From a virus (Duplodnaviria; Heunggongvirae; Uroviricota; Caudoviricetes): DNA of 64,000 bases. The notes under the pieces were generated by a model that saw nothing but the letters and a program-made list of their open reading frames with translations, searched no databases and was not told the origin of the DNA. The position numbers were made by a program, and so were the translations under genes. The stretch lies in IMG/VR virus record IMGVR_UViG_3300037504_000201, positions 1 to 64,000 of that record. One strand, given 5' to 3'. Shown here one piece after another: positions 1,679-62,698 of this stretch (position 1 is the stretch's first letter; every line of letters begins with the position of its first letter).

Positions 1679-1766
1679 CACGGTTCCGTGTTAATCAATT
1701 TGAGATAATTGATTGTCTTAAAATATAATAATAATGTTTTAAGCCAATCAATTAAGTCAAATTGAA
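1678..1766. repeat. AT-rich composite palindromic element, copy 1
   Basis: TAACACGGTTCCGTGTTA palindrome, then left arm AATCAATTTGAGATAATTGATT, an AT-rich spacer and right arm AATCAATTAAGTCAAATTGA. TTGAGA-18-TATAAT on the + strand (1700-1729). Confidence 0.8.
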
Positions 1767-5211: not shown

Positions 5212-5821
5212 ATTCGAATCAGACACCCAGACCAATAGAGTGCGGCTCGAGTGGGCCGCGCGGCGCATCGCGTCCAATCATGACAAGGCCCCCGCGTCCC
5301 CGCTCTACGCGCTATCTAAGCTCGTCATCGCCCCGCGCTGGATTGGGCGAGGCGTGCGAGCACCGGGATTGCGCCGCTGGAAGCGTGGCGAGCTGATCGA
5401 GGTCGTAGGCGCGCTGTTGCGCCGCGACAAGGCGGCGGCGCGTGAGGAATGGGGCGACGTGGGCTATTACGTCGCCCAATCGTGGGGCTGGCTGTGGCGC
5501 GCCTATGTGGCCGTCACGCCCAACGACGTCATCGAGGCCGCGTGCCGCAAGTTCGAGGCGCGCGCTGCGACAAAGCGAGTGGTACCCGTCGGACGTCGGC
5601 GGGTGATCAGTGCAAGGAGGGGTGAATCTATGTTACAGTTTCCACTTTTTGGGTTTGGCGATGCGAGCGTCTCCCGCTCGCCTGACGGGTGCACTGTTTA
5701 CACACAAAGAATGGGCATTGTATTGCGCACGATTACTTATTCGCCCAGTGGCGCGTACATAAGTACCGTTGATGTAAACACTGCCACAAAAGAGACGATA
5801 ATGGTGCAGCTCAATGAGTAG
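5204..5821 (+). CDS. MazG-like nucleotide pyrophosphohydrolase domain protein (putative)
   Basis: EL-IEVVGALL...EEWGDVGYYVA follows the EExxE...EexGD pattern of MazG/HisE. Confidence 0.4.
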   Translation: MIEFESDTQTNRVRLEWAARRIASNHDKAPASPLYALSKLVIAPRWIGRGVRAPGLRRWKRGELIEVVGALLRRDKAAAREEWGDVGYYVAQSWGWLWRAYVAVTPNDVIEAACRKFEARAATKRVVPVGRRRVISARRGESMLQFPLFGFGDASVSRSPDGCTVYTQRMGIVLRTITYSPSGAYISTVDVNTATKETIMVQLNE

Positions 5822-7675: not shown

Positions 7676-8278
7676 ATGGAATACATTGATAATCTGATGG
7701 ACAAGCTGGAAGTGGTATTCGCCCCACCGTGGAAGCGTATACCTGGTAACACAATCGTCGCCGGCGATTACATCGACGTGAGCGTCAAAGGCCAATCCGG
7801 GAAGGTCGTCATTAACTTGTACTGTCGCCCTGACTGGCGCCTGCTCTATGAACGCTACGGACAAAGCGTGCTGGACGCGCGGGGAGACGAGCAATCCAAG
7901 ACGATAGCCGTGACGTGGGTGTACCCAAGTGCTGACGCAGTCGATCCGCAAGACGTCAGTCGGCGCGTGGAGTTCTTTCTGCGCGAGTTTGGCGTTGCGC
8001 ACCTGGTTGACCTCGACCTATGGGACGCGGCGGCGCTGTTGGTCGGCAACGGGCCGAAGTGGTGGGCGTACACAGAGATCCCGCTTGTCGAACGAGAGAT
8101 CAAGGACGGAGTGGTCACGGCGCACTACCGGCGCAACGATGAGGGTGAGGTGGTAGGATTCTTGCACGTCAAGCGCGCGTCCATTGACTTACCAGACGGC
8201 GCCGACAATATGTCGCTGACGTGGTCGGGCACGCCGGAAGAGATCAAGTCAGTCTGGGAGACGCTAGACTTCGCATAG
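7676..8278 (+). CDS. hypothetical protein
   Basis: 200-aa ORF. Start is 2 nt after the upstream stop. Confidence 0.55.
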   Translation: MEYIDNLMDKLEVVFAPPWKRIPGNTIVAGDYIDVSVKGQSGKVVINLYCRPDWRLLYERYGQSVLDARGDEQSKTIAVTWVYPSADAVDPQDVSRRVEFFLREFGVAHLVDLDLWDAAALLVGNGPKWWAYTEIPLVEREIKDGVVTAHYRRNDEGEVVGFLHVKRASIDLPDGADNMSLTWSGTPEEIKSVWETLDFA

Positions 8279-8289
8279 ATATATGACTT

Positions 8290-8350
8290 TGTTGATTCTC
8301 CTAAAACATTATTATTATATTTTAAGAGAATCAATTATGTCAAATTGAAT
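8290..8350. repeat. AT-rich palindromic element, copy 2 (right arm only)
   Basis: Arm GAATCAATTATGTCAAATTGAAT. TTGACA-18-TATAAT on the minus strand, so it points antisense here. Confidence 0.7.
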
Positions 8351-8373: not shown

Positions 8374-10149
8374 ATGACAATCACTCTACGCCCTTATCAA
8401 CAAGACGCCGTCGACGCCGCCTGGGTGCGTTTTGCAACCGACCAGAGCACGCTTTTCGCAATGGCGACGGGTTGCGGCAAGACCGCCGCCGCCTGCGGGA
8501 TGGGTGCCAGGCTGGTCGAGGAATACGGTCGGCCTATCCGCACGCTGCTCTTGTGCGACCAGCGGCACCTCACCAAGCAAGCGGTGAAGCACGTCGCCAA
8601 ACACTGGCAACACGTGCTGGGCACGCCGGGTGTGGTGATGGGCAAGCTGGACGAGTACAAACGCGACTTTGTGGCGTGCACCGTCCAGTCGCTCGTGTCG
8701 AACGGGCGCATGGCGCGCCTGCTGAGCAAGCCGGTTGACTTTGTCATCCTCGACGAGTGCCACCACGCTGTGGCACCCACCTGGCAACAGTGCATCGAGG
8801 AGATCAAGGACGCCAACCCCGACGTTAAAATCCTGGGTCTGACCGCCACGCCCCGCCGCACTGACGACGTGGGGCTTGAAAAAGTCTTTGACTCCGTCGC
8901 TTGCCGGTTGAGCATCGCCAAGGCGATTGAGATCGGCGCGCTGTGCCCGTTCGAGGCGCTGGGCTTCCGGCTTGAGCAAGCCGACCTCGACGCGCTGCGC
9001 CAGAACGAGGACGGAGAGTTCATCGACCAAGAAGAGGTGGACCGGATCCTTGAGGCCGCCAACGCCGAAGAGATTGTCATTGAGAAATGGGAAGAGTACG
9101 CGGCAGGACGCCCCACGCTCGTCTTTACCTCGACCGTGGCCCAAGCCTACCGGCTGGCGGCAAAGTTCCACGCCGCCGGGCACAAGTTCTATGCCATTGA
9201 AGGTAACACGCCCCAAGAGGAACGGGACCGGCTGGTCAAGGCCTACCGTGCTGGGGACATTGACGGCATCGTCAATGTGCGTGTGTTCGCCGAGGGGTTC
9301 GACGCCCCTTGGACCGAGTGCATCGCGTTCCTGGCCCCCACCGGCTCAGACCTCGTCTACGTGCAAAAGGTCGGGCGTGGCCTGCGACTCTACCCCGGCA
9401 AGGTCAAGGCGCTGATCCTCGACTTTGTGCCCGCCGGCGAGCGCGACTTCCGTATGGCCGGCGACCTACTGGAAGGCAAGCCCAAGGCTCAGCGCAAGGC
9501 CGAGAGCAAGGCCGCCGACGTAGGTGTGCTGTTCGGCCTGGGCATCAACTCAAAAGGCGAGGGCATCGACGCCGACCCCGACCAAGTGCGAATGATGGTG
9601 CTGGACTATCTGACCAACGGCGCGCGCGACTTGCCCTGGACGCTGTACAAAGACGACGGGCTGGCGACGTGCGCGATCTCGTTTAGTCGCACGCTGGCCG
9701 TCATCCTCAAGGGAGACGGCGACACCCCGCCCGAGGTCGCCGCCCGGCTTGATAAAGCGGACGGGGTCCGGGCGAACGGGGAATGGCAACCCAACTACGA
9801 CCCCGTCTACAAGGCGCTGTTGCGCCAGGACCACGGCAGCTTTAAGGTGCTGGAAGTGCGCGCGATAAAAGAAGAGGGACGCCGCACGCGATACGTCGTG
9901 ACGCCGTTGGGCCGGTCAGAGGATTGGGAGACGGCACGGGACATCGCAGAGCGGCACGCCGACAAGTGGGAAGACAAGCGCGTCGCCCGGCGCCGCAAGC
10001 AGTGGCGGGGTAAGCCGATGTCAGACAAGCAAATCCCGCTGTTGAAAAAGCTGCACATCTACTCGCCAGACCTAGACCGCGGTCAAGCGAGCCAGCTCAT
10101 TGACCACACATTCACCCGCCAGCGCCTTCAGCGCTACGGATATTTGTAA
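8374..10149 (+). CDS. SF2 DEAD/DEAH-box DNA helicase
   Basis: Motif I AMATGCGKT, motif II ILDECHH, motif III TATPRR. RBS AGGAGGGAG. Confidence 0.85.
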   Translation: MTITLRPYQQDAVDAAWVRFATDQSTLFAMATGCGKTAAACGMGARLVEEYGRPIRTLLLCDQRHLTKQAVKHVAKHWQHVLGTPGVVMGKLDEYKRDFVACTVQSLVSNGRMARLLSKPVDFVILDECHHAVAPTWQQCIEEIKDANPDVKILGLTATPRRTDDVGLEKVFDSVACRLSIAKAIEIGALCPFEALGFRLEQADLDALRQNEDGEFIDQEEVDRILEAANAEEIVIEKWEEYAAGRPTLVFTSTVAQAYRLAAKFHAAGHKFYAIEGNTPQEERDRLVKAYRAGDIDGIVNVRVFAEGFDAPWTECIAFLAPTGSDLVYVQKVGRGLRLYPGKVKALILDFVPAGERDFRMAGDLLEGKPKAQRKAESKAADVGVLFGLGINSKGEGIDADPDQVRMMVLDYLTNGARDLPWTLYKDDGLATCAISFSRTLAVILKGDGDTPPEVAARLDKADGVRANGEWQPNYDPVYKALLRQDHGSFKVLEVRAIKEEGRRTRYVVTPLGRSEDWETARDIAERHADKWEDKRVARRRKQWRGKPMSDKQIPLLKKLHIYSPDLDRGQASQLIDHTFTRQRLQRYGYL

Positions 10150-11770: not shown

Positions 11771-12384
11771 AATACCCAAAAATTGAAACGTTGTGGAATC
11801 GCGGGGACGACTTTAAAGTCATGCCCGGAGATTTCAGAATGCCAGAGTTTGTGCTTGTCAAATCTTGGCTGATCACCGAGAAAATTGATGGGCGCAATCA
11901 TCGCGTGATCCTAAACGTAGACGGCACTGTCGAGCATCGCGGACGAACCGACCGCGCGCAATTTGCCGACTTTGAGCTTGAAGCGGCGCAGCGTATCATT
12001 GACGACGATTTGGTGCGCGCCGCCTTCGACCGAGGCTCACAAGCCGTTCTTTACGGGGAGCTGTACGGCCCTAAGATTCAAAAGGGAGGTGTGTATGGTG
12101 ATGAGATTCAGTTTAGACTGTTTGATGTTCGCGTTGGCGATTGGTGGCTAAATTGGAGAGACGTTGAGGATGTGGCGCAAAAGATCAACGTATCGACTGT
12201 GCCGCTGATTTACGAAGATGAATTTTTACCGACCTGCAAGGATGAGCTTGGGGACTATTTTACTGACGGCAGCTATGTCGGCGGCGACAGACCGGAGGGC
12301 ATTGTGGCGCGAACAGACCCTCTTTTATTCACTCGACGCGGAGAGCGTCTAATGTGGAAGCTAAAATTTAAAGATTTCAAATGA
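11767..12384 (+). CDS. ATP-dependent RNA/DNA ligase-like nucleotidyltransferase
   Basis: Motif I TEKIDGRN (KxDG). 205 aa, Rnl2-like size. Confidence 0.6.
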   Translation: MKYPKIETLWNRGDDFKVMPGDFRMPEFVLVKSWLITEKIDGRNHRVILNVDGTVEHRGRTDRAQFADFELEAAQRIIDDDLVRAAFDRGSQAVLYGELYGPKIQKGGVYGDEIQFRLFDVRVGDWWLNWRDVEDVAQKINVSTVPLIYEDEFLPTCKDELGDYFTDGSYVGGDRPEGIVARTDPLLFTRRGERLMWKLKFKDFK

Positions 12385-14673: not shown

Positions 14674-15275
14674 TGAGTGACGATCCGCTTTTGGACAAAT
14701 ACGGACTAAAACCAGAAGACGTGATGGTATGCTTTCTCGAACGCGCAATAGGAGCGCACCCTACAGTTCTGTACTTTCTGAGCGAGGCAACCTACTGCCC
14801 GGAAAGCCCGTCCATGTTCGATGGCTCTTTGTCAAATGACTTTGACCGAACATCAAAGCTGCTAGAGAAGATGCTTTACGATGCGCTTCCAGGCGGCACT
14901 TATGACCGATTGCTTGCGCGAATGCAGCAACGCAAAGCGAGCCATTACGCATTCTCGTATGGCTTACACGGCAACGGCGCGGGCAAGTGGGAGAGAAAAG
15001 TAATCGCAGAGGTAGTGGGGCTATTTGAGATTCAACGCGAGAGTGAGTGGGGGAAAGATAAAGAAGTTTACTCGGCTGTCAAGAACGCCGATGACGCCAT
15101 ACACCTACTCGACGAATCTGTGATCCATTCCGCGTTTGCAAGCATTGACAATGTCCGACAGTTCGTTCTTCTATTCTTTAAAAATTGGTCAGAAGATGAC
15201 GGCGAAACAATGCAAGAGAGATGTTACGCCGCCGTCAACAAAGCCAACCAAAAAATGACAGGCAAGGAGGTATGA
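14670..15275 (+). CDS. hypothetical protein, paralog A
   Basis: RBS AAGGAGG. Shares LPGGTYDRLL...RKAS with 15272-15799. Lower-GC segment. Confidence 0.55.
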   Translation: MMSDDPLLDKYGLKPEDVMVCFLERAIGAHPTVLYFLSEATYCPESPSMFDGSLSNDFDRTSKLLEKMLYDALPGGTYDRLLARMQQRKASHYAFSYGLHGNGAGKWERKVIAEVVGLFEIQRESEWGKDKEVYSAVKNADDAIHLLDESVIHSAFASIDNVRQFVLLFFKNWSEDDGETMQERCYAAVNKANQKMTGKEV

Positions 15276-18714: not shown

Positions 18715-19062
18715 ATGCCATATCACGTAACCTGGGACGACTTTTACGACGACCAGTTGCCAGACGAAGCGGAGCCAAGCGAGCGTGTGGCCTTTATCCA
18801 TTCCGGCGTCATTGTCTATGCAACATCGAACCGCTTTTATTACAAGGTGTTTAGCAAATCGCGGGGTTGGTACGCTATCGATATTCGGCAAGCTGCACAC
18901 TTGATGATTGCGCCAGAGTCGGTTGATGAGGTGGTGAATGGCGACCACCGACCATTGATTCAGATGCTGATTGACCAGGCCTTCGGCGCAACGGAGCCGG
19001 AGGACGTATTGATAAACCATATGGAAAGATTGAAAGGAGATAAACAAGAATGGCCGATTTAA
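18715..19062 (+). CDS. hypothetical protein
   Basis: RBS GGGAGGG. Confidence 0.5.
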   Translation: MPYHVTWDDFYDDQLPDEAEPSERVAFIHSGVIVYATSNRFYYKVFSKSRGWYAIDIRQAAHLMIAPESVDEVVNGDHRPLIQMLIDQAFGATEPEDVLINHMERLKGDKQEWPI

Positions 19063-19256
19063 CACTTTACGGTGCATGGATTATGGGCGATAACGAGTGG
19101 GGCACCACCGGCACCGGCGAGGTGTTCAACACACCCCACGTCGGCGTAGCCCGCGCGCAGGCGTGGCAATGGTGCAAATTTAGAAACACCGTCCCGGCCA
19201 AGTTTGGCGACGACGGCAAACCGATATTCTTAGGTGAACTCCCAGCGGACGAATAA
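19050..19256 (+). CDS. hypothetical protein
   Basis: RBS GGAGATAAACAAG. Confidence 0.5.
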   Translation: MADLTLYGAWIMGDNEWGTTGTGEVFNTPHVGVARAQAWQWCKFRNTVPAKFGDDGKPIFLGELPADE

Positions 19257-19416
19257 TCCGCTATGGAATAGGGGGCGTATAGGCACGACAAGAAAGGGGG
19301 TACTCATCAAAGCACTTAAAACTAGACCGGGCACGCTACATCTGAGGGGTCAGATAGCTGACCTGGTTGGCTTGAGGTAGTGGGCGGTGGTCGTGCCCCC
19401 GTCACCGCCCACGATT

Positions 19417-19506
19417 TACACGGTTCCGTGTTACTTAGCCGACTTAGTTTTAGCTCTTAAAACATATATTATATATTTTAAGAGAATCAATTATGTCAAA
19501 TTGATT
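19417..19506. repeat. AT-rich palindromic element, copy 4 (hairpin-extension type)
   Basis: TACACGGTTCCGTGTTA, then CTTAGCCGACTTAGTTTTAGCTC, spacer and arm GAATCAATTATGTCAAATTGATT. The TTGACA-18-TATATAAT it carries is on the minus strand. Confidence 0.75.
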
Positions 19507-19526
19507 TTAGATGAATAGGAGGTAAA

Positions 19527-19691
19527 ATGATGCAAGTAGTATGGATGGTGTTAGGTGTGGCGCTATGCTTCACCGGCGGCCTTGGCGTCGGGCTTGTCCT
19601 GGGCCGCGCCAACGGGTACAAGGAGGCGAGTCGTGTCAGGCGGCGCTATTACGGCCTGGGCGAGGAAGGGGCAGAACGTGACTTTACGTGA
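19527..19691 (+). CDS. small membrane protein (54 aa)
   Basis: RBS AGGAGGTAAA. One TM helix (VLGVALCFTGGLGVGLVLG). Not in the ORF track because it is under 60 aa. Confidence 0.45.
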   Translation: MMQVVWMVLGVALCFTGGLGVGLVLGRANGYKEASRVRRRYYGLGEEGAERDFT

Positions 19692-19908
19692 TTATCAAGT
19701 GGTCGAGGGCTACACGGCCCACATGCTGCGTAGTCGCGTCGTCAAGGCGATGCGTGACGGCTGGCGCCCCATTGGCGGTGTGGCGATGATGTACGACGGC
19801 AAGGTGTCGCGCTACGCCCAGGCGATGGTAAAGGACGAGGAAGATCAGTCGGTTTTGGACCGTCCCATTATCGACTATGCAGAACAGTTTAACGAAAGGG
19901 GTAAGTAG
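19678..19908 (+). CDS. hypothetical protein
   Basis: GTG start after GAAGGGG. Overlaps the upstream ORF's end. Confidence 0.4.
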   Translation: MTLRDYQVVEGYTAHMLRSRVVKAMRDGWRPIGGVAMMYDGKVSRYAQAMVKDEEDQSVLDRPIIDYAEQFNERGK

Positions 19909-20216
19909 TGATGACCAATAAAGAGCTACAAATAAATGTCAAGCGCGCGCTTGAACTGGCGCTTGAGCTTGAGCAAGCCGCGGCCGACGTGGCACAAGCG
20001 CTCGACGCATTCAATGAGGCAAGTTGCGAGCTTGGCGCCGCAAATCAGCGCCGACACGAACTGGCAATGGAGCTTCAACAGGTCGCGGACTTGAAGGGGC
20101 ATGTGCCCGGCGCGTCGGTGTGTATCCAGACCGGTGACGACATCGTGGTCACCATCACGCGCGTGCAAGGCGAACCGGTCAAGGCGTCGCGCCGCAAGCT
20201 ATACCGCGCCACTTGA
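19908..20216 (+). CDS. hypothetical protein
   Basis: ATGA overlap. Last gene of the + block. Confidence 0.5.
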   Translation: MMTNKELQINVKRALELALELEQAAADVAQALDAFNEASCELGAANQRRHELAMELQQVADLKGHVPGASVCIQTGDDIVVTITRVQGEPVKASRRKLYRAT

Positions 20217-20240
20217 CACGGGCGCGCGCCTGCGATACAA
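20212..20240 (+). promoter_or_regulatory. sigma70-type promoter
   Basis: TTGACA-17-TATACAAT-like (TACAAT). The -35 overlaps the stop codon of 19908-20216. Confidence 0.5.
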
Positions 20241-20246
20241 TAGAAG

Positions 20247-20320
20247 CATCTCCTCCTTGAGAGGCACCAATCGCTTGCCCCATCGGGCCACCGCACCCCC
20301 GATGGGGCAGCCTCTTTTTT
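20247..20320 (+). ncRNA. candidate small RNA (about 70 nt) with anti-SD motif
   Basis: Sits between the promoter at 20212 and an intrinsic terminator. Contains UCUCCUCCUU, complementary to the AGGAGG RBSs used throughout. Confidence 0.3.
20270..20320 (+). terminator. rho-independent terminator
   Basis: Stem TTGCCCCATCGGG / CCCGATGGGGCAG followed by CTCTTTTTTAT. It sits at the convergence of the + and - blocks. Confidence 0.75.
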
Positions 20321-21329
20321 ATCCCTCATCTATCACATCGGCCAGCTCATCAACCTGCGCGTCAAGCTCTTGCAGCGCCACAATACGCGCTGCTATCCGG
20401 TCGGCCAGCGCCGTAAGCTCGGCGGCCTTTTCCCGCAGCTCCGCCTCGTCCGCTCTCATCTCGTCAATCAATGCCATTAAATCCACCTTTCCATATTGTT
20501 GCAACAGCTCTTCTAGTCGCACTTCACGCGCGTCATCGTAGCCGGGCTGAATCGCCTGGAATATTGACGCGCCGGCAAATCCAAACCCATCAGCAGCGTC
20601 CAGCCTCCGCTCCACTCCGTCGATGTCGATACGGTAGCTTCCTCGATCAGGGCACCATCCGACGCCCATTATTACGCGCGAAATGTCGTGATGGGTGCGC
20701 CACCAGTCTAGCTCGAATGTCCAGTCATTGATGCTGGATTGATAATTCATCGGGACGAGAAAATCCACGCCCCAATTTAGCGCATCCTGCTGGACCTCGC
20801 GAAAGAATGGCGTGCCGCGGGGCCAGTCGGTGTACGGCCCGCCACTCAATCCGCCATCATACGTCGCCGTTCGGATAGCCGCCGACAACTCGCCAGTCGC
20901 CGATGCACGAAACGCCTCGACGATGCGCGTGATACCGGCTGTAATTCTATCGTCGATGCGTGGGCGATGGTCGTTGCCGGACACGTCGTATTTGTCCACT
21001 CGAATGCCATCGAGGTGGACATTGCCACTCAGCGCGGGAAAGCGCTCTATCGGCGCCAGCGATGACGCAACGAACCTATGCAATTGCGTCTCGCCCTGAT
21101 CGCCCACCGCCCAAGGCCGCGCGAACTCCAGACACCACACCCACAAGTGACAGCGCACGCCAATACCGGTCAGCGCGTCGATAGTAGCGCCAAATGCCTC
21201 TGCCGTGCCGCCGTACACCTCCGGCTGCAAAAGGTAAGCGTCGGTATACGATGCACGCTCAAAATGCTCAATCAGTCGCTCCTGCCGGTCGGTATACGCA
21301 CTCGGATTGATCCACGCCGCAATTCTCAT
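20319..21329 (-). CDS. TIM-barrel glycoside hydrolase-like protein with C-terminal coiled coil (possible endolysin)
   Basis: 336 aa. GH-like barrel pattern. Terminal gene of the late operon. Confidence 0.35.
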   Translation of the reverse strand: MRIAAWINPSAYTDRQERLIEHFERASYTDAYLLQPEVYGGTAEAFGATIDALTGIGVRCHLWVWCLEFARPWAVGDQGETQLHRFVASSLAPIERFPALSGNVHLDGIRVDKYDVSGNDHRPRIDDRITAGITRIVEAFRASATGELSAAIRTATYDGGLSGGPYTDWPRGTPFFREVQQDALNWGVDFLVPMNYQSSINDWTFELDWWRTHHDISRVIMGVGWCPDRGSYRIDIDGVERRLDAADGFGFAGASIFQAIQPGYDDAREVRLEELLQQYGKVDLMALIDEMRADEAELREKAAELTALADRIAARIVALQELDAQVDELADVIDEG

Positions 21330-21616
21330 CCCATCACCTCGTAAATTTGCGGCAGTATCTCCGGCTCGACCACTACATCACCCACGACCTCCATAAGCAG
21401 CACGCGCTCGGCCTGCGATAGCTCAAGCTCGCCGGCCTCAATCCGCGCCAACAGATCCGCCTTGGCGAGTGTCACGAACGCCTGGTAGGCCGGCAATTGT
21501 CGCGTGTGACCGCGTAGCGCCTGGGCCAGCACGTCGCCAACCGTGAGCGCCTTTCCGTTTCGCGTGGCCGGCTTACCGTTGATCTTGACAACTTGCGACA
21601 ATTCAATTACGTCCAT
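21326..21616 (-). CDS. hypothetical protein
   Basis: Overlaps the downstream gene's start. Confidence 0.45.
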   Translation of the reverse strand: MDVIELSQVVKINGKPATRNGKALTVGDVLAQALRGHTRQLPAYQAFVTLAKADLLARIEAGELELSQAERVLLMEVVGDVVVEPEILPQIYEVMG

Positions 21617-22005: not shown

Positions 22006-23763
22006 CTACGCATTATACAACTGAATGTATTTAAATGTGCCGTTGACGGCCACACGAAGCCGGGCATAGGCCGACCCTACAGCGTTGACGGTATCAACCG
22101 GGTCGCCGTCGCCTACGCTGCTGATGAAATTGATAAACTCCTCAGAGTCGTCGGCCTGATCCAATTCTAGCACCGGAATGGCGCCGGACGAATCCGATTG
22201 GTCAATGGAAACCTGGCCGGATGGCGATATGGTGCCTATGCCGACGCGACCAGAATACAGAATAGACAATAGATTGTCTGAAAATCCGCCCGCGTCCGTG
22301 CGGGACTGAAAAGCAAGCCGATTGTCGCCGCCCGCTGCGCTTGGTGTCACGTTGACCATCGCGAAATTTTTTCTATTCGCAGCCGCCTGCGAGCCATCAG
22401 AATTTAGCTCAAATCGTGATACGCCATTATTAAGAGTGGTTAGTCCACTGTCAATTCGAAATACAACATTTGACGAATTGTATACCTCCACGCTTGCATC
22501 GGGGCTATTTGTGCCAAATCCAACCTTGCCATCGCTCCCCCGCACGAACAGCGCGTTGGCCTCTCCGACGGCTTCAATCCGCGTGTCAACGTCCTGGGCG
22601 TCGTCGTTTATCACCACCTCGCCCTCGTCGATGCTGCCGTTGTATCCACTAAGGCGCAACAGCTCGCGTTGTGTATCATCCATCCATATTTTAAATATCA
22701 ACTCGCCGCCCTCGCCGCCGTCGGTAACATCGGCGCTTTTACCGCCTATGGTGACGAATCTTGTCTGATTATCACCGTCGTCGTTGCCGTAAAAATCAAT
22801 GGCGCCCAGCCAATCCCCGTCTGCCGGGCTGGAGCTATCCTTGATAAAAAGCAGCGCCGCAGGGTTGGCGTCGTCGTTGGTATTCTCAATCTCGATTTCC
22901 GGCTTGTTTGTTGCGCTATCCGTGACCTTGAACTCGTGCAGCGTCAGCAAGCCGTCCGAGTCCGTCGCTAACACGCGCGCGTTAGCGCCGGGGTCACTGT
23001 CGGCGCCTTCGATATACACATTGTCCCAGCCGCTGATCGTGCCGGTGACGTGTACGTCTTGCAGATAAAGATCGGCCCCCGCCACACCGGTCAAGTCGCC
23101 GTCGATGCGCGTGGAACGGATGCGTGTTGTGGTCGCCGCTGAGCACACCACATCGCCTTCAATCTCGCAGCCCTCAATATCTACCCCGCCACCGCAAAGG
23201 TCTACCGCCTCTCCACTGGACTCGTTGCTCATAAAAATGCGACATTGGACAATCGTGCTCTCGATAGTCCCATCGCCTCTCATTTTTACGCCGGTCACAT
23301 CGCGCCCGGTAGCGGCACCGTCCATGTTGATGTAGCATTGCTGCAAGTGCGTGTGGAATGCTCCGCTTGCGTCGATACCGATAAAATCCCCAGCGCCACC
23401 GGACAACGTGCGCGTGATGTGCATCCACACAACGTTAACATCGTTGTCTAGATCGAGAATCGGCCCGGTATCGTCCTCGCCGCCCAGTTGCACGATGCCG
23501 CTATCTTTAGCGCCGCCAAAGCCCAGCATCGTGACAAATTGCTCGTCAAGCGTCACATTTTCATTGTACACGCCTGGCATAATCGCCAATAGGTCGCTGG
23601 TAGAGCACGCGGCCTCGCCTTCCGTGACGGTGTCGTAATCCGCGTTGGATTTGGCGACGACGACAACGTTCTCAAAGTCCTGCAAATTGCCGCCAATACT
23701 CTCGACAATGACTTTCGAGAGTACGCTGCCGCTTGTGTTGATCGTAACCGCCGGAAACCTCAT
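22006..23763 (-). CDS. tail fibre/spike with beta-helix (pectin-lyase fold)
   Basis: ATGA coupling at 23763. Repeated beta-helix rungs (GDGTIESTIVQCRIF, VDIEGCEIEGDVV). Confidence 0.5.
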   Translation of the reverse strand: MRFPAVTINTSGSVLSKVIVESIGGNLQDFENVVVVAKSNADYDTVTEGEAACSTSDLLAIMPGVYNENVTLDEQFVTMLGFGGAKDSGIVQLGGEDDTGPILDLDNDVNVVWMHITRTLSGGAGDFIGIDASGAFHTHLQQCYINMDGAATGRDVTGVKMRGDGTIESTIVQCRIFMSNESSGEAVDLCGGGVDIEGCEIEGDVVCSAATTTRIRSTRIDGDLTGVAGADLYLQDVHVTGTISGWDNVYIEGADSDPGANARVLATDSDGLLTLHEFKVTDSATNKPEIEIENTNDDANPAALLFIKDSSSPADGDWLGAIDFYGNDDGDNQTRFVTIGGKSADVTDGGEGGELIFKIWMDDTQRELLRLSGYNGSIDEGEVVINDDAQDVDTRIEAVGEANALFVRGSDGKVGFGTNSPDASVEVYNSSNVVFRIDSGLTTLNNGVSRFELNSDGSQAAANRKNFAMVNVTPSAAGGDNRLAFQSRTDAGGFSDNLLSILYSGRVGIGTISPSGQVSIDQSDSSGAIPVLELDQADDSEEFINFISSVGDGDPVDTVNAVGSAYARLRVAVNGTFKYIQLYNA

Positions 23764-30342: not shown

Positions 30343-30358
30343 TGTTAACCTCCTGATA

Positions 30359-30451
30359 AATCAATTTGAGATAATTGATTGTCTTAAAATATATAATATA
30401 TGTTTTAAGAGCTAAAACTAAGTCGGCTAAGTAACACGGAACCGTGTACAC
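30359..30451. repeat. AT-rich palindromic element, copy 5 (reverse-complement of the copy-4 type)
   Basis: Arm AAATCAATTTGAGATAATTGATT, spacer, then GAGCTAAAACTAAGTCGGCTAAG and TAACACGGAACCGTGTA. Confidence 0.75.
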
Positions 30452-45161: not shown

Positions 45162-46135
45162 AGTCCTAATTCCTCCGCCGCCTTTGCCATCCCGCGCATT
45201 TGAATGTCCTCCATGTCCTCATGCTTCATGCTCAAATCGCGCAACGTGTATTGGAACATCGCGCGGCGACGAATAGCATCTGCTTTTCTTCGACTTCGGC
45301 TGCTATAGCTGTAGCCGCTGATTACCTCGTCCAAATCGGCAATCTTGGACTCTATTCTGTCAACGTTCTGACGTAGTTTTTTTTGGGTGCTCTTGATCCG
45401 CGTGGTCCTCACCGCCTGTTTGACTTGCTTGATCTGGCTTGCATTGAGCTTGGTGCCGTCAGCGACGTGAAAATATTGACTGGCGATGTCGCGCGCCACA
45501 TCCGCCGCCTCGGGTGCAACAACCCAGCGTTTCTTACTTGGATTCCACTGGCGCATGCTGTACGCGATGTTGTTTTTTAAATCATCAACAAAGTCTCGAT
45601 TGTACGGCGTCTCAAAAGTTGTGCCTCCGCCCTTGTTTTTACCGATCACGGCCACGTCGCGCTCGGGATTCTTGGCGATTTGCTGGCGCAAGTCAGCGGT
45701 CGCGCCGGTGCGCAGTGACATAGCCGAAGTCCTTGGCGCGCTACCGCCGCGCTTCCCTTTGCGCCCGGCGTGCCCCCAGTTGCCGCTACCTGGGCCGCCC
45801 TTGGCCTCTTCCCGCTTGATAATCTTCTCACTGTCGGGGTCATAGCGATATGTATCGCCGTCCAGCATCTCGGCGATGCGCCGCCCGATGACGCGCCAGT
45901 CAGATTCCGAATAGTTGCCGGCCTCACGTTGCCCATCGTGGTTAAAGTACTGCATCGCCGCCAGCGCCCGGTCCCCGTCGCACGGGTACTTCCAGTTGAC
46001 GGGGTCGGCAAATTTACTCTCCGGCACGTCTTCATACTCTGCGGGTTTGGTGAGATGCCCGCCTTCGACGGGCGATATCCCGTATTTTTTAGCGCGCTTG
46101 GCTTGCGCTTCTTTTAGCTTCTCACGATCTGCCAT
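45158..46135 (-). CDS. head-module protein carrying Gly-rich motif GGPGSGNWGHAGRKGKRGGS
   Basis: RBS ACGGAGG. The motif is shared with the portal's C-terminal region. Confidence 0.5.
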   Translation of the reverse strand: MADREKLKEAQAKRAKKYGISPVEGGHLTKPAEYEDVPESKFADPVNWKYPCDGDRALAAMQYFNHDGQREAGNYSESDWRVIGRRIAEMLDGDTYRYDPDSEKIIKREEAKGGPGSGNWGHAGRKGKRGGSAPRTSAMSLRTGATADLRQQIAKNPERDVAVIGKNKGGGTTFETPYNRDFVDDLKNNIAYSMRQWNPSKKRWVVAPEAADVARDIASQYFHVADGTKLNASQIKQVKQAVRTTRIKSTQKKLRQNVDRIESKIADLDEVISGYSYSSRSRRKADAIRRRAMFQYTLRDLSMKHEDMEDIQMRGMAKAAEELGL

Positions 46136-46145
46136 ACATCGCCTC

Positions 46146-46210
46146 CGTAAAATAAAAGCGGTTCGCTAATGAGTCAAGCAGTCTTGCTTGACTCATTAGC
46201 GAACCGCTTA
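46146..46210 (-). terminator. rho-independent terminator (25-bp perfect stem)
   Basis: AAGCGGTTCGCTAATGAGTCAAGCA-agac-TGCTTGACTCATTAGCGAACCGCTT, then UUUAUUUUA on the minus-strand RNA. A GGCC-UUCG-GGCC tetraloop hairpin just upstream. Confidence 0.7.
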
Positions 46211-46242: not shown

Positions 46243-46482
46243 TTATCTGGCCTGGCGGTTTAGTCCGTATCGGTGGCACAAATAATCGTCGTACACCACC
46301 AGGCATTTGTGCAAAACTATCGCGACGTCGCGCGCCCTATCCGACCACGCCCACCGCTGCCGGTGGGTCGGGAATGACGCCTTGGCGCCGTCTCCGTTGC
46401 GCGAGAATGAAAACTGCTCGCATAGATAATCATCGAGTAGAACGCATATTCTGTGAATGACTGTCGCGTGTGCTCTGTCCAT
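46243..46482 (-). CDS. hypothetical 79-aa protein with internal repeat (autonomous moron)
   Basis: Leaderless start 4 nt after the -10. Repeats LLDDYLCEQF and VVYDDYLCHRYG. Has its own promoter and terminator. Confidence 0.5.
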   Translation of the reverse strand: MDRAHATVIHRICVLLDDYLCEQFSFSRNGDGAKASFPTHRQRWAWSDRARDVAIVLHKCLVVYDDYLCHRYGLNRQAR

Positions 46483-46486
46483 ATCT

Positions 46487-46516
46487 AGTATACACTATCC
46501 CGTGTATGGTTGTCAA
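46487..46516 (-). promoter_or_regulatory. leaderless promoter class C, copy 1, with TACAC-N6-GTGTA operator
   Basis: TTGACA-ACCATACACGGGATAGTG-TATACT-AGAT-ATG. Confidence 0.7.
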
Positions 46517-47143: not shown

Positions 47144-47164
47144 AATATCCCCTTCGTATAGATA

Positions 47165-47233
47165 TCTGACTTTATCGATTCTCCTAAAACATTATTATTA
47201 TATTTTAAAAGAATCAATTATCTCAAATTGATT
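47165..47233. repeat. AT-rich palindromic element, copy 6
   Basis: CTGACTTTATCGATTCTCCTAAAAC, spacer, arm GAATCAATTATCTCAAATTGATT. TTGAGA-18-TATAAT on the minus strand points at 46523-47143. Confidence 0.75.
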
Positions 47234-55232: not shown

Positions 55233-55690
55233 CCAGGGTCCCATCCTTCCAGCGGCACCAGCCAGCTCGCCGGGTTGGTCAGCTTGACCAGCTCTATGCC
55301 GATCTCGTGTAGCAAGTCGCGCGGCCAGCTCTTGCGGTCCAGCTCGGCACGCGTGCGCGCCAGCTCGCCGAACGGGACGAGCAAGGCCACGCCTCGGTCG
55401 CGCGGGGCGTAGAACTCGAAGGCGGCCCACGTACTGGCGGTGGTGGCGTGACACGTCGCCAGTGCAGTCCACTGCTCATCGCTGAATGTGTCCGTAAAAT
55501 TGACGCTCGTCACCGGCTCCTTGCACGTCTTGCACTCACAAAAGAATCCTTTGCCGTTGACGAGACATCCCAATAGGTCGATTGGGTTTTTTAGCCCTCT
55601 ATAATCCGTCGGGCGATGCACCCAAGCAACCATCGGGGACGCCTGGAAGCAATTCTTCATCTCGGTCTCAAAACTGCTGTGGCGACTCAT
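55229..55690 (-). CDS. PD-(D/E)xK nuclease (Hjc/RecU-like resolvase candidate)
   Basis: Leaderless start. IDLLGCL...FFCECK fits the D...ExK motif. Confidence 0.4.
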   Translation of the reverse strand: MSRHSSFETEMKNCFQASPMVAWVHRPTDYRGLKNPIDLLGCLVNGKGFFCECKTCKEPVTSVNFTDTFSDEQWTALATCHATTASTWAAFEFYAPRDRGVALLVPFGELARTRAELDRKSWPRDLLHEIGIELVKLTNPASWLVPLEGWDPG

Positions 55691-55696
55691 ATTACA

Positions 55697-55726
55697 AGTA
55701 TACACCATACCGTGTATGGTTGTCAA
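55697..55726 (-). promoter_or_regulatory. leaderless promoter class C, copy 2
   Basis: TTGACA-ACCATACACGGTATGGTG-TATACT-TGTAAT-ATG. Confidence 0.7.
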
Positions 55727-55747: not shown

Positions 55748-55855
55748 TACACGGTTCCGTGTAACTTAGCCGACTTAGTTTTAGCTCTTAAAACATTATA
55801 TATATATTTTAAGGGAATCAATTATGTCAAATTGATTGCTCTTGAATGCACTAGG
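55748..55855. repeat. AT-rich palindromic element, copy 7 (hairpin-extension type)
   Basis: TACACGGTTCCGTGTA, CTTAGCCGACTTAGTTTTAGCTC, spacer, arm GAATCAATTATGTCAAATTGATT, extension TGAATGCACTAG. The minus-strand TTGACA-18-TATATATA is in sense. Confidence 0.75.
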
Positions 55856-55888
55856 CGAGTGAGCAAGTGTAAGTGTCGGGTCGGGGAA

Positions 55889-55918
55889 TAAAAAAAGCCC
55901 CGCCGGGGGTGGCGGGGT
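55889..55918 (-). terminator. rho-independent terminator
   Basis: On the minus RNA: CCCCGCC-ACCCCC-GGCGGGGC, then UUUUUUUAUU. Confidence 0.7.
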
Positions 55919-56695: not shown

Positions 56696-56807
56696 CTCAA
56701 TCTCCTTTTTCATTCTAGCGATCCCCCATTACCGCATCGTTTTCAGCGGCACCCGCACGGCGCGGGCTGTAGGGCCAACCCTGCTTGTTAGGCGGGGGTT
56801 TTAGATA
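56696..56807 (-). ncRNA. conserved structured RNA leader, copy A
   Basis: 90-nt repeat with multi-hairpin potential. Compensatory changes relative to copy B. Confidence 0.4.
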
Positions 56808-57017: not shown

Positions 57018-57136
57018 TTCAATCTCTCCTTTTCTCATCAAGGCGATCCCCCATTACCGCATCGACTTTTCAGCGGCACCCGCACGGCGCGGGCTGTGGG
57101 GCCAACCCCGCTGGCTAGGCGGGGGTTTTGGAATTT
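57018..57136 (-). ncRNA. conserved structured RNA leader, copy B
   Basis: Near-identical to copy A, with a covarying GGGG-UUGG-CCCC versus AGGG-UUGG-CCCU stem. Confidence 0.4.
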
Positions 57137-58945: not shown

Positions 58946-59036
58946 AATTCAATTTGACATAATTGATCGGCTTAAAACATATATTATATATTTTAAAAGA
59001 ATCAATTATGTCAAATTGATTGTGCGTGAATGCACT
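58946..59036. repeat. AT-rich palindromic element, copy 8 (complete two-arm copy)
   Basis: Left arm ATTCAATTTGACATAATTGATCGG, spacer, right arm GAATCAATTATGTCAAATTGATT plus GTGCGTGAATGCACTAG. Minus-strand TTGACA-18-TATATAAT. Confidence 0.8.
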
Positions 59037-61896: not shown

Positions 61897-62529
61897 CTAA
61901 TCCAGCTTGTGCAATCTGCCGCACTTGGGGCAAATTGTATAACGCCCAATCCCCCACAACTGCCCAGATTCAACCCCCCACTTTTTGCGCAGCTCTTCCG
62001 CCTTGTCGATCTGCGCGCCGGGGTCCTCGGGCGGCTCTTGCGATAGCGCCAACAACGCCTCGATATCGCCCACGTCAAACGCCACCGGCGCCTCGTCCAT
62101 CTGCGCAAGCTCGGCAAGCTGCTGCTCAAAGTCGGCTTCCCACATTCGCATATGGTCAGTGAGATCAAAGTCGCCGCCGGATAGCGTCAATGCGTTGTGG
62201 TCCACTCCGTACGACTTGGCAGCCGCCTCGCTGGCAGCGTCAACGCCGAACGTGACGGGCACAAGCCAGCCGCCGTTGTCGTCAACAGCAATCCCGCGCG
62301 GCGGGTCGTCGCCAGCATTGCGCATCGCGTCCAACGCGATAAAGCGCCCGTTGCCTTCAACAATCCCGCCGTCGCCCTTGTTCAGCTGCGGCTCGAATTT
62401 AGGCGAGTCCTTGAATCCGTGGCGTTTGAAGGACTTAATCAGCGCCTCAATGTCATGGCGCTTCTTGTTATCGTCCCAAAGCAGCGCGAGGTTCAATGGC
62501 ACGTATTCGATGGTCAGTTTATCACTCAT
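61897..62529 (-). CDS. ParB-like nuclease domain protein
   Basis: Leaderless start. GNGRFIALDA and surrounding region are ParB/Srx-like. Paired with the methyltransferase. Confidence 0.5.
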   Translation of the reverse strand: MSDKLTIEYVPLNLALLWDDNKKRHDIEALIKSFKRHGFKDSPKFEPQLNKGDGGIVEGNGRFIALDAMRNAGDDPPRGIAVDDNGGWLVPVTFGVDAASEAAAKSYGVDHNALTLSGGDFDLTDHMRMWEADFEQQLAELAQMDEAPVAFDVGDIEALLALSQEPPEDPGAQIDKAEELRKKWGVESGQLWGIGRYTICPKCGRLHKLD

Positions 62530-62535
62530 ACCTCA

Positions 62536-62565
62536 AGTATACACTATCCCGTGTACGCTTGTCAA
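62536..62565 (-). promoter_or_regulatory. leaderless promoter class C, copy 3
   Basis: TTGACA-AGCGTACACGGGATAGTG-TATACT-TGAGGT-ATG. Confidence 0.7.
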
Positions 62566-62578
62566 CTGGATACGCCTA

Positions 62579-62652
62579 AAATCAATTTGACTTAATTGAT
62601 TGGCTTAAAACATATAATATATATTTTAAAGGAATCAATTAAGTCAAATTGA
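62579..62652. repeat. AT-rich palindromic element, copy 9 (two-arm)
   Basis: Arms AATCAATTTGACTTAATTGATT and GAATCAATTAAGTCAAATTGAAT. TTGACT-18-TATATA on both strands. Confidence 0.8.
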
Positions 62653-62668
62653 ATTCTACCGATTGGTA

Positions 62669-62698
62669 TAAAAAAAGCCCCGCCGGGGGGGCGGGGCC
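62669..62698 (-). terminator. rho-independent terminator
   Basis: On the minus RNA: GGCCCCGCC-CCCC-GGCGGGGC, then UUUUUUUAUACC. Confidence 0.7.

What the first reader, a model, noticed from the sequence alone, without database searches (positions are those of the whole stretch)
20212..20320. Promoter-terminator pair defining a candidate 70-nt sRNA with an anti-Shine-Dalgarno motif
TTGACA(20212)-17-TACAAT(20235-20240) is followed within about 30 nt by a strong intrinsic terminator (stem GCCCCATCGGG/CCCGATGGGGC plus UUUUUU). The terminator sits at the convergence point of the two gene blocks.

The predicted transcript, GAAGCAUCUCCUCCUUGAGAGGCACCAAUCGCUUGCCCC..., contains UCUCCUCC. That is complementary to the AGGAGG/GGAGGA Shine-Dalgarno sequences used by nearly every gene in this phage. 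It could act as a regulatory sRNA or an SD-sequestering decoy. It could also be an attenuator remnant.
Basis: partly seen in the sequence, partly recalled or inferred. Interest (0 to 1): 0.55.

Follow-up and report, generated by a model that had tools for sequence, protein, structure and literature searches.

The report
Orphan promoter feeding a phage terminator
At the point where the two gene blocks of an uncultured phage meet, a near-perfect host-type promoter sits 18 bases before a strong terminator, so a roughly 72-base RNA with an exposed ribosome-binding-site-complementary tail is probably made, though nothing yet shows that this RNA has a function.

Summary
TTGACA (20213-20218), a 17-bp spacer and TACAAT (20236-20241) precede a two-tier hairpin (20259-20316) that runs into a run of six T (20315-20320). 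The hairpin folds at -33.4 kcal/mol (z = -5.0). It lies in the 102-nt gap between the last rightward gene (stop 20214-20216) and the last leftward gene (stop 20319-20321).

The hairpin is almost certainly the intrinsic terminator of the rightward operon 19527-20216. The promoter is probably genuine. The window holds 12 sites matching at least 11 of 12 consensus positions, against 0.23 expected. Ten of these are clearly the phage's own promoters. About 4e-4 chance sites are expected in this particular gap.

The predicted 71-73 nt RNA has a single-stranded 5' tail, AUCUCCUCCUU. Anti-SD hexamers are otherwise almost absent from sense strands in the 64 kb.

Support stops there:
- No relative carries the locus.
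- The one homologous junction (52% identical neighbouring protein) has a different terminator of opposite polarity and no promoter.
- No target stands out beyond generic SD pairing.
- There is no Rfam match.

Verdict: a plausible but unproven phage small RNA, at best a new member of a known kind. Interest is modest.

The parts
19527..20216 (+). Last rightward operon: 54-aa membrane protein, DUF1737 protein and a 101/102-aa coiled-coil protein. Its stop codon TGA (20214-20216) overlaps the -35 hexamer.
   Evidence: ORFs; gene calls on the identical Logan contig; DUF1737 match at E = 2.5e-8.
20213..20218 (+). -35 hexamer TTGACA (6/6).
20219..20235 (+). 17-bp spacer CGGGCGCGCGCCTGCGA, 82% G+C. 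It contains the 10-bp palindrome GGCGCGCGCC (20221-20230) and is unlike the AT-rich, class-specific spacers of the phage's other promoters.
20236..20241 (+). -10 hexamer TACAAT (5/6).
20248..20258 (+). Predicted 5' single-stranded tail AUCUCCUCCUU. The inferred start is A20248, 7 nt after the -10. The tail carries the anti-SD stretch UCUCCUCC (20249-20256) and matches the 16S rRNA 3' tail AUCACCUCCUU at 10 of 11 positions.
   Evidence: Unpaired in the MFE and centroid folds. Uniqueness on sense strands. The 16S comparison rests on general knowledge. The start site is inferred, not shown.
20259..20316 (+). Terminator hairpin. Outer helix 20259-20265/20310-20316, internal loop 20266-20275, inner 12-bp helix 20276-20287/20298-20309, apical loop 20288-20297.
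   Evidence: -33.4 kcal/mol, z = -5.0. The same structure forms in the read-through context..
20315..20320 (+). Run of six T, the U tract of the terminator. It overlaps the stop codon of the leftward gene.
20319..21329 (-). Last leftward gene, 336 aa: a TIM-barrel fold with a C-terminal coiled coil, function unknown. Its stop codon TAA is at 20321-20319. On this strand the hairpin is followed by AAGGAGGAGAUG, not by a U tract.
20199..20258 (-). The other-strand reading of the motif: AAGGAGG (20258-20252), then AG, then ATG (20249-20247) opening a 16-codon ORF that ends at 20199.
   Evidence: The SD-to-start spacing is 2 nt, against 4-10 nt at real gene starts.
19517..19533 (+). Translation initiation region of the first operon gene (AGGAGGUAAAAUGAUGC). 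It is predicted to pair with 20246-20257 in the full-length operon mRNA.
   Evidence: Pair probabilities are about 0.98, but the gain over scrambled controls is only 2.4-5.4 kcal/mol.

Best explanation
The hairpin plus T run is the Rho-independent terminator that ends the last rightward operon (19527-20216).

Between that operon's stop codon and the terminator sits an orphan, near-consensus promoter of the host's primary-sigma type. It most likely fires and is stopped by the same terminator. This would make a self-contained non-coding transcription unit producing an RNA of about 71-73 nt (about 20248 to about 20318-20320).

That RNA would be an 11-nt unpaired pyrimidine tail (AUCUCCUCCUU) attached to the terminator hairpin and its U tail. 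The layout matches sRNAs that start from a promoter at the end of a gene and share its terminator.

The inferred mode of action is base pairing through the 5' tail with SD/AUG regions of mRNAs. The RNA would also be perfectly antisense to any leftward transcript that reads past the 336-aa gene, which has no canonical terminator of its own on that strand.

What is shown: the sequence elements, the fold, the statistics, and the use of the same promoter consensus elsewhere in the phage.

What is inferred: promoter activity, the start site, the existence of the RNA, and any regulatory effect.
For: - Terminator: -33.4 kcal/mol, z = -5.0, stem running straight into T6, directly after a stop codon.
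- The phage uses similar canonical terminators elsewhere, near 62665-62696 and 55885-55916.
- Promoter: 11/12 match with the optimal 17-bp spacer.
- The window has 12 sites of at least 11/12, against 0.23 expected.
- Ten of those sites lie in intergenic gaps and form three families with conserved spacers. Nine of the ten point along their gene block and one (8343, - strand) points against it, so the host polymerase evidently reads this consensus.
- About 4e-4 chance sites are expected in this 102-nt gap, and about 0.02 in all non-coding sequence.
- The 5' tail is unpaired, and the MFE structure holds 68% of the ensemble.
- Anti-SD hexamers are otherwise nearly absent from sense strands.
- The - strand has no U tract after the hairpin, so leftward read-through, and hence antisense pairing, is plausible.
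- An unrelated phage contig (L021, which encodes a terminase) has the same layout. A consensus promoter starts 4 nt after a gene's stop codon, followed by a CU-rich unpaired start and a terminator at a convergent junction.
Against: - No expression data exist.
- The promoter belongs to none of the phage's promoter families. It has an 82% G+C spacer and no AT-rich upstream region, unlike every other strong promoter here.
- No conservation. The only homologous junction (L002/L003) has an unrelated hairpin with its T tract on the other strand, and no TTGACA/TACAAT.
- No homologue was found in IMG/VR, JGI metagenomes or GTDB genomes.
- No Rfam family matches.
- No target stands out. The best duplexes are 9-10 bp at generic ribosome-binding sites.
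- The same bases read as an ordinary SD on the other strand.
- IMG/VR holds no other consensus promoter followed by CTCCTCC, so the design is not common.
Confidence: 0.45

Rival explanations
1. Terminator only. The hairpin ends the rightward operon. The promoter-like site is either silent in the real host or a leftover, for example the promoter and 5' UTR start of a lost inserted gene, whose short transcript has no selected function.
For: - The site is a singleton outside promoter classes A-C, with a GC-rich spacer in a 64% G+C gap. The phage's evident promoters lie in gaps of 23-55% G+C, most of them 23-31%.
- A second singleton (22454, - strand) lies inside the fibre ORF, so stray consensus sites do occur.
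- Two unrelated metagenome hits show that transcripts beginning UCUCCUCCUU can simply be 5' UTRs of protein genes: L020, and L022 upstream of rpsU.
- The locus is not conserved.
Against: - Two singletons against 0.23 expected has a Poisson probability of about 0.02.
- This one falls in a 102-nt gap, where about 4e-4 chance sites are expected.
- An 11/12 match with a 17-bp spacer is hard to keep silent in a host that reads the same consensus at ten other phage promoters.
- This explanation does not account for the otherwise avoided anti-SD stretch.
Confidence: 0.35
2. A cis-acting 3' UTR element. In the full-length operon mRNA, the CU-rich stretch (20246-20257) folds back onto the SD and start codons of the operon's first gene (19517-19533) and damps its translation. 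This would resemble the 3' UTR to 5' UTR pairing described for icaR in Staphylococcus aureus. The promoter would be irrelevant or secondary.
For: - In folds of the whole mRNA, the pairs 20252-20257/19517-19522 and 20246-20250/19529-19533 have probabilities of about 0.98.
- This holds for six assumed 5' ends between 19300 and 19512.
- The pairing covers both the SD and the AUGAUG start.
Against: - Scrambling the stretch costs only 2.4-5.4 kcal/mol out of -340, and the SD then pairs elsewhere with similar probability.
- As a two-molecule duplex, this site ranks only in the top 2-7% of windows.
- The 5' region is transcribed and can be translated long before the 3' UTR exists.
- There is no comparative support.
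Confidence: 0.1
3. The motif belongs to the - strand. AAGGAGG plus ATG would be the ribosome-binding site of a 16-codon ORF (20249-20199), or the relic of a former gene start downstream of the 336-aa gene.
For: - On the - strand the sequence is a textbook SD followed by ATG.
- GGAGG on the sense strand is the rule in this phage, with 69 copies.
Against: - SD-to-ATG spacing is 2 nt, whereas real starts here have 4-10 nt.
- The ORF has 16 codons, overlaps the end of the rightward gene, and has no homologue.
- This does not explain the consensus promoter on the other strand.
Confidence: 0.05
4. A DNA-level insulator. A strong head-on promoter holds RNA polymerase just beyond the hairpin and blocks leftward polymerases, which have a hairpin but no U tract on their strand. 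The short RNA would be a by-product.
For: - The - strand hairpin (-38 kcal/mol) is followed by AAGGAGGAGAUG rather than U residues.
- The promoter lies 10-45 bp beyond the hairpin and faces it.
- In the relative L002, where a proper terminator exists for the leftward gene, no such promoter is seen.
Against: - This is entirely inferential, and no tool here can test it.
- I know of no established precedent for a promoter selected solely as a roadblock partner of a hairpin.
- A weak terminator-like site for leftward transcripts exists about 300 nt further on, at 19939-19954.
Confidence: 0.05

Closest known systems
sRNAs transcribed from a promoter at the 3' end of a gene that share the mRNA's terminator ('type I' 3' UTR-derived sRNAs such as DapZ and MicL in enterobacteria; from general knowledge)
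   Same: The promoter overlaps the end of the upstream ORF (the -35 covers its stop codon). The sRNA and the mRNA use one intrinsic terminator. The RNA is short (about 72 nt), with the seed in an unpaired 5' region followed by a terminator hairpin and U tail.
   Different: - The promoter lies just past the stop codon rather than inside the ORF.
- The element is phage-encoded.
- There is no evidence of expression, of chaperone binding, or of a defined target.
- The host is probably not an enterobacterium. Capsid relatives lie in Chloroflexota genomes.
Lambda OOP RNA (77 nt) and P22 sar RNA (68/69 nt), short phage RNAs with their own promoter and terminator (review PMC12197685, read)
   Same: The size is similar and the element is phage-encoded. 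It has a dedicated promoter followed closely by an intrinsic terminator. It is oriented against a neighbouring transcription unit, so it would be antisense to that unit's read-through RNA.
   Different: - OOP overlaps the coding 3' end of cII, and sar overlaps the ant ribosome-binding site.
- Here the overlap with the leftward gene is at most 1-2 nt of its stop codon.
- Any antisense action would therefore fall on untranslated read-through only.
- There is no sequence similarity and no Rfam hit.
Pyrimidine- or C-rich seeds that pair with SD sequences (RsaE/RoxS and RNAIII UCCC motifs; the icaR 3' UTR anti-SD; from general knowledge)
   Same: An exposed pyrimidine-rich stretch is complementary to GGAGG-type ribosome-binding sites. 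It could act in trans, or in cis from a 3' UTR.
   Different: - The motif here is CU-rich, a full CCUCC anti-SD plus an anti-AUG, and is linear at the 5' end rather than in hairpin loops.
- It is so generic that it would match most initiation regions of the phage itself.
Ordinary intrinsic terminator at a convergent gene junction
   Same: All defining features are present for the + strand.
   Different: - It is unidirectional, with no A tract upstream.
- It has an unusually large apical loop (10 nt) and a 10-nt internal loop.
- A consensus promoter sits 18 nt upstream.

Membership tests
Rho-independent (intrinsic) terminator | Stable G+C-rich stem-loop | tested here: met
   12-bp inner helix plus 7-bp outer helix; -33.4 kcal/mol, z = -5.0.
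Rho-independent (intrinsic) terminator | U tract immediately 3' of the stem | tested here: met
   The outer helix ends in the T run; T6 at 20315-20320.
Rho-independent (intrinsic) terminator | Located downstream of a stop codon on the terminated strand | tested here: met
   42 nt after TGA at 20214-20216.
Rho-independent (intrinsic) terminator | Bidirectional action (A tract 5', U tract 3') | tested here: not met
   The 5' flank is CCUCCUU. On the - strand the hairpin is followed by AAGGAGGAGAUG.
Primary-sigma (sigma-70-type) promoter | -35 and -10 hexamers close to consensus, with a 16-18 bp spacer | tested here: met
   TTGACA, 17 bp, TACAAT; 11/12.
Primary-sigma (sigma-70-type) promoter | The host polymerase of this phage uses that consensus | tested here: met
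   Ten further sites of at least 11/12 lie in intergenic gaps (nine of them pointing along their gene block); 12 observed against 0.23 expected.
Primary-sigma (sigma-70-type) promoter | Transcription start observed | not testable with these tools
   No transcript data are available.
This phage's own promoter classes A, B and C | Class-specific conserved spacer or flanking operator-like repeats | tested here: not met
   The spacer CGGGCGCGCGCCTGCGA resembles none of them. The locus is absent from all repeat families.
Base-pairing small regulatory RNA | A discrete short transcript exists | not testable with these tools
   Predicted only from the promoter and terminator.
Base-pairing small regulatory RNA | Accessible seed region | tested here: met
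   Positions 20248-20258 are unpaired in the MFE and centroid folds.
Base-pairing small regulatory RNA | Conservation of the seed and structure in relatives | tested here: inconclusive
   Only one related junction exists, on 1.1-kb contigs with 52% identity in the neighbouring protein, and it lacks the element. No other relatives were found.
Base-pairing small regulatory RNA | Specific target with extended complementarity | tested here: not met
   The best duplexes are 9-10 bp at generic ribosome-binding sites, -14 to -17 kcal/mol. The value reaches -20.7 only if the RNA starts 2 nt earlier than expected.
Any described RNA family (Rfam 15) | Covariance-model match | tested here: not met
   Only noise at E >= 2.4 in 19000-21500, and none on the + strand across the locus.
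Cis-antisense phage RNA of the OOP/sar type | Overlap with a functional part (coding end or ribosome-binding site) of the opposing mRNA | tested here: not met
   The overlap is limited to 1-2 nt of the stop codon of the 336-aa gene.

The most novel reading that the evidence does not exclude
The phage makes a small RNA whose 5' end copies the 3' tail of 16S rRNA (AUCUCCUCCUU against AUCACCUCCUU). The RNA would act as a free-floating anti-SD/anti-AUG decoy that occupies ribosome-binding sites in bulk. This would shift translation away from SD-led messages toward the phage's leaderless messages. The three class C promoters start transcription at or within a few bases of the ATG.
Probability: 0.04. 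Interest if true: 0.8.

Novelty: new member of a known kind. Interest (0 to 1): 0.35.

Why it matters
If the RNA is real and active, it would be a phage-encoded regulator built from almost nothing: a promoter, an 11-base tail and a borrowed terminator. It would come from a phage lineage, probably infecting Chloroflexota, for which no RNA regulation is known. It would also show that the strong avoidance of anti-SD sequences in phage messages can be broken deliberately.

If the RNA is not active, the locus is simply a well-built terminator with a stray or leftover promoter, which is ordinary. The more robust product of this work lies outside the finding: a map of the phage's three promoter families and its repeated palindromic control element.

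Tried and rejected
- Close DNA or protein relatives among deposited phages: none for the 2.5-kb region or either flanking protein.
- IMG/VR relatives of the 336-aa and 1034-aa proteins: none.
- Exact or degenerate DNA scans for the locus: none in IMG/VR and none in GTDB genomes.
- All three protein-database searches on the junction genes returned only the phage itself, plus one 52% relative on 1.1-kb contigs.
- Exact-protein look-ups gave one identical 1,877-bp Logan contig, so there is no population variation to analyse.
- Capsid relatives (IMG/VR L004-L009; Chloroflexota genomes L024-L026) share only the head module and do not reach a comparable junction.
- A scan for the phage's repeated control element in IMG/VR gave only single, apparently chance hits.
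- tRNA or tmRNA, which might mark an attachment-site relic: none.
- Rfam: noise only.
- Complementarity of the hairpin loops to other parts of the phage: only 9-12-mers of no pattern. The over-represented octamer GCCCCATC has no extended context.
- Function of neighbouring proteins: no Pfam or PHROG assignment except DUF1737. The 336-aa model (pLDDT 62.7) matches TIM barrels generically.
- Recurrence of 'consensus promoter followed by CTCCTCC' in IMG/VR: zero hits. The four metagenome hits are about the number I would roughly estimate from chance alone and are unrelated in sequence, so they are not evidence of a family.
- A search for the run accession SRR12689834 in the literature found nothing.

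Full report
**Setting**

The window is most of an uncultured tailed-phage genome.
- Genes run rightward from 1 to 20216. This block includes a helicase at 8374 and a primase-like gene at 12381.
- Genes run leftward from 64000 to 20319. This block includes the large terminase at 59057, portal at 49952, major head protein at 41838, tape measure at 30580 and a fibre-like protein at 22006.
- GC skew changes sign at the same point.
- No deposited phage is close at the DNA level. The terminase is 39% identical to those of Salinibacter phages.
- The head protein has 47% and 34% relatives inside an Anaerolineae MAG and Herpetosiphon geysericola. The host may therefore be a member of Chloroflexota, but only the head module is shared.

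**Observation**

The features exist as described, one base to the right of the stated coordinates.
- TTGACA is at 20213-20218, followed by a 17-bp spacer and TACAAT at 20236-20241.
- The stop codon of the last rightward gene (TGA, 20214-20216) lies inside the -35 hexamer.
  - A 7-bp outer helix pairs GAGAGGC 20259-20265 with GCCUCUU 20310-20316.
  - A 10-nt one-sided internal loop follows, then a 12-bp inner helix and a 10-nt apical loop.
  - The outer helix runs directly into T6 (20315-20320).
- The fold is -33.4 kcal/mol against -19.2 +/- 2.8 for shuffles (z = -5.0). It forms identically when 100 nt of upstream mRNA are included.
- The T run overlaps the stop codon of the last leftward gene (20319-20321).
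- On the - strand the same hairpin is followed by AAGGAGGAGAUG, not by U residues. The terminator therefore serves the rightward direction only.

**Is the promoter more than chance?**

- I scanned both strands of the whole window with the same rule as the tool. There are 12 sites matching at least 11 of 12 positions, against 0.23 +/- 0.44 in 100 dinucleotide-preserving shuffles.
- Ten of them lie in intergenic gaps; nine point along the local gene block and one (8343, - strand, in the + block) points against it. They fall into three families with conserved spacers.
  - Class A: 1700+, 8343-, 47226-, and more loosely 10156+. These are flanked by AATCAAT/ATTGATT inverted repeats.
  - Class B: 2156+, 3025+, 58904-. 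The spacer is TATTCTAGAATGTG.
  - Class C: 46516-, 55726-, 62565-. The spacer is ACCATACACGGGATAGTG.
- The polymerase that transcribes this phage therefore plainly recognises TTGACA/TATAAT with 17-18 bp spacing.
- The site at 20213 and one at 22454 (- strand, inside the fibre ORF) are singletons. Two singletons against 0.23 expected is itself unlikely, with a Poisson probability of about 0.02.
- About 4e-4 chance sites are expected in this particular 102-nt gap. About 0.02 are expected in all of the roughly 5.2 kb of non-coding sequence.
- Against activity, the spacer is 82% G+C and contains a 10-bp palindrome that occurs only twice in the window. The gap is 64% G+C, whereas the phage's evident promoters lie in gaps of 23-55% G+C, most of them 23-31%.
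- I rate activity in the natural host at about 0.7.

**The predicted RNA**

- With a start at A20248, 7 nt after the -10 (inferred), termination in the T run gives 71-73 nt.
- Its first 11 nt, AUCUCCUCCUU, are unpaired in the MFE and centroid structures. The MFE structure holds 68% of the ensemble.
- The stretch is unusual for this genome.
  - On sense strands CCUCC occurs 9 times against 69 for GGAGG.
  - CUCCUC and CCUCCU occur on a sense strand nowhere else in 64 kb. UCCUCC occurs once elsewhere.
- The tail matches the universal 16S rRNA 3' tail AUCACCUCCUU at 10 of 11 positions (general knowledge). Any good SD complement would do much the same.

**The same bases on the other strand**

- On the - strand the sequence reads AAGGAGG-AG-ATG and opens a 16-codon ORF (20249-20199).
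- Real gene starts in this phage have 4-10 nt between GGAGG and the start codon. A 2-nt spacing argues against translation.
- A relic of a former gene start cannot be excluded.

**Targets**

- Duplex scans of the tail against all sense-strand sequence found nothing beyond ordinary ribosome-binding sites. For an RNA beginning at A20248:
  - -16.6 kcal/mol at the gene starting at 5630;
  - -15.3 at the DUF1737 gene of the same operon;
  - -14 to -15 at several others.
- If the RNA began at G20246, the best site would be the start region of the gene at 15272 (CAAGGAGGUAUGAUGC, -20.7).
- No perfect complement longer than 12 nt exists for any part of the RNA.
About half of 89 ORFs have a 5-mer core near a candidate start, and three quarters have a 4-mer core.

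**A cis alternative**

- I folded the entire operon mRNA, with six assumed 5' ends between 19300 and 19512, through to 20320.
- The fold pairs 20246-20257 with the SD and AUGAUG of the first gene (19517-19533), with pair probabilities near 0.98.
- Scrambling the 12 nt removes the pairing but costs only 2.4-5.4 kcal/mol, and the SD then pairs elsewhere just as firmly.
- This is a lead, not evidence.

**Comparative evidence**

This was the decisive test available, and it largely failed for lack of relatives.
- The 336-aa neighbour has one relative (52% identity) among 5.8 billion proteins. The 101-aa and DUF1737 neighbours have none.
- The relative sits on contigs of about 1.1 kb (L002, L003) that include the sequence downstream of the gene.
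  - There the hairpin is unrelated (CACCCCTTCAGC/GCTGAAGGGGTG).
  - Its T tract lies on the strand of the 336-aa homologue, the opposite polarity.
  - No TTGACA/TACAAT pair and no CUCCUCC are present.
- Pattern scans for the locus found nothing in IMG/VR or in 185,579 species-representative genomes.
- The identical Logan contig adds no variation.

**A look-alike**

- A metagenome scan for TTGACA-N17-TAYAAT-N4-9-TCTCCTCCTT returned four contigs unrelated to this phage. By my own rough estimate, that is about the number chance alone would give.
- Two are 5' UTRs of protein genes. One of them, L022, precedes a gene whose product reads as ribosomal protein bS21.
- One (L019) is followed by a hairpin.
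- One (L021) is a phage contig with a terminase gene.
  - Its promoter begins 4 nt after the stop codon of a methyltransferase gene.
  - A 22-nt unpaired CU-rich start follows, then a 14-bp hairpin whose upstream A run and U-rich 3' side give it the look of a bidirectional terminator (my reading of the sequence), at a convergent junction.
  - The resemblance in layout is striking, but it is a single case.
- IMG/VR contains no consensus promoter followed by CTCCTCC at all. The design is not common.

**Weighing**

- The terminator function is as secure as sequence analysis allows.
- The promoter is probably real.
- That the resulting RNA has a selected role, and that the role runs through SD pairing, is unproven.
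- I put the self-contained small-RNA unit with a base-pairing role at 0.45. The alternatives are:
  - terminator plus silent or leftover promoter, 0.35;
  - a cis-acting 3' UTR anti-SD, 0.10;
  - a - strand ribosome-binding site or its relic, 0.05;
  - a head-on polymerase roadblock substituting for the missing leftward terminator, 0.05.

**Comparison with known systems**

- In construction the unit is closest to sRNAs that start at the end of a gene and share its terminator (DapZ/MicL type).
- In size, origin and orientation it is closest to lambda OOP (77 nt) and P22 sar (68/69 nt) (PMC12197685).
- It fails the antisense-family criterion of overlapping a functional part of the opposing message.
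- It has no Rfam relative.
- It cannot be tested for the defining property of any sRNA, which is that the RNA exists.
- If real, it is a new member of a known kind.

Noticed in passing
window 1693-1766, 8276-8349, 19432-19505, 30359-30432, 47159-47232, 55763-55836, 58947-59020, 62580-62653: An AT-rich element of about 74-100 nt occurs in eight copies. Two copies are near-perfect palindromes (58949-59019 and 62579-62655). The element carries the class A promoter (TTGASA, 18 bp, TATAAT or TATATA) bracketed by AATCAAT/ATTGATT inverted repeats that look like operator sites. It appears to be the phage's main transcriptional control module.
   Followed up: partly
window 8343 (- strand, in the + block); about 19500 (- strand, in the + block); 30359 (+ strand, in the - block): Three copies of the class A promoter point against the local gene block. 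They would give antisense transcripts to the gene ending at 8278, to the region around 19050-19400, and to the tape-measure gene.
   Followed up: partly
window 19417-19507 (-), 30358-30448 (+), 55748-55837 (-): Three copies share the promoter and the first 50 nt or so of transcript (AUGUUUUAAGAGCUAAAACUAAGUCGGCUAAGUAACACGGAACCGUGUAC), then diverge. The shared part contains two small hairpins. In the 55748 copy it ends in CUUUU, so it may be a short RNA or a common leader. GUUUUAAGAGCUA superficially resembles the Cas9 repeat GUUUUAGAGCUA; this was not tested.
   Followed up: partly
window 46482-46516, 55690-55726, 62529-62565 (- strand): In class C promoters (TTGACA, ACCATACACGGGATAGTG, TATACT), an ATG that opens an ORF of 79, 153 or 210 codons follows 4-6 nt after the -10. 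These messages are predicted to be leaderless.
   Followed up: partly
window 22426-22454 (- strand): A second orphan consensus promoter (TTGACA, 17 bp, AATAAT) lies inside the fibre-like ORF. It points toward the last three leftward genes (126, 96 and 336 aa), so it faces the promoter of the finding across a 2.1-kb module.
   Followed up: no
window 46156-46209 (- strand): A perfect 25-bp hairpin (-45 kcal/mol) is followed by UUAUUUU. It lies between the leaderless 79-codon ORF and the gene starting at 46135, and is far stronger than any other terminator in the window.
   Followed up: no
window 56706-56805 and 57031-57132: A stretch of about 100 nt is repeated 325 nt apart (85-92% identity between copies). 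It is G+C-rich and contains hairpin-forming segments (GCACCCGCACGGCGCGGGC and GGGCCAACCC...GGCGGGGG) ending in TTTT. It lies between small leftward genes (families D4 and D10).
   Followed up: no
window 55885-55916 and 62665-62696 (- strand): Two near-identical canonical terminators (GCCCCGCC...GGCGGGGC followed by U7) each lie just upstream of a copy of the palindromic control element and a class C promoter. They show the phage's usual order of terminator then promoter, the reverse of the finding.
   Followed up: partly
L021 12352-12460 (contig Ga0209521_10000105): An unrelated phage contig has the same layout as the finding. The promoter TTGACA-17-TACAAT starts 4 nt after a methyltransferase stop codon. 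A 22-nt unpaired CU-rich start (UUUCUCCUCCUUCUCUCC) follows, then a 14-bp hairpin that by its flanking A and U runs looks like a bidirectional terminator, and then convergent genes.
   Followed up: partly
L022 2578-2625 (contig Ga0315290_10077568): A consensus promoter gives a transcript that begins UCUCUCCUCCUU, about 35 nt upstream of a gene whose product reads as ribosomal protein bS21 (MTEVIVHENESFEAALKRF...). This could be a cis anti-SD in an rpsU leader. The protein identification rests on my reading of the sequence, not on a search.
   Followed up: no
window 723, 743, 13963, 20277, 32586, 51154, 53459, 58725, 59707, 61629: The octamer GCCCCATC occurs 10 times on the + strand, against 2 for its complement. 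My rough composition-based estimate is about 2 per strand. One copy is an arm of the terminator's inner helix. No extended motif surrounds the copies.
   Followed up: partly
window 19939-19954 (- strand): A terminator-like site, UCAAGCGCGCGCUUGA followed by CAUUUAUUUG, lies on the - strand inside the 5' part of the 101-aa rightward gene. It could stop leftward read-through about 300 nt beyond the junction.
   Followed up: no
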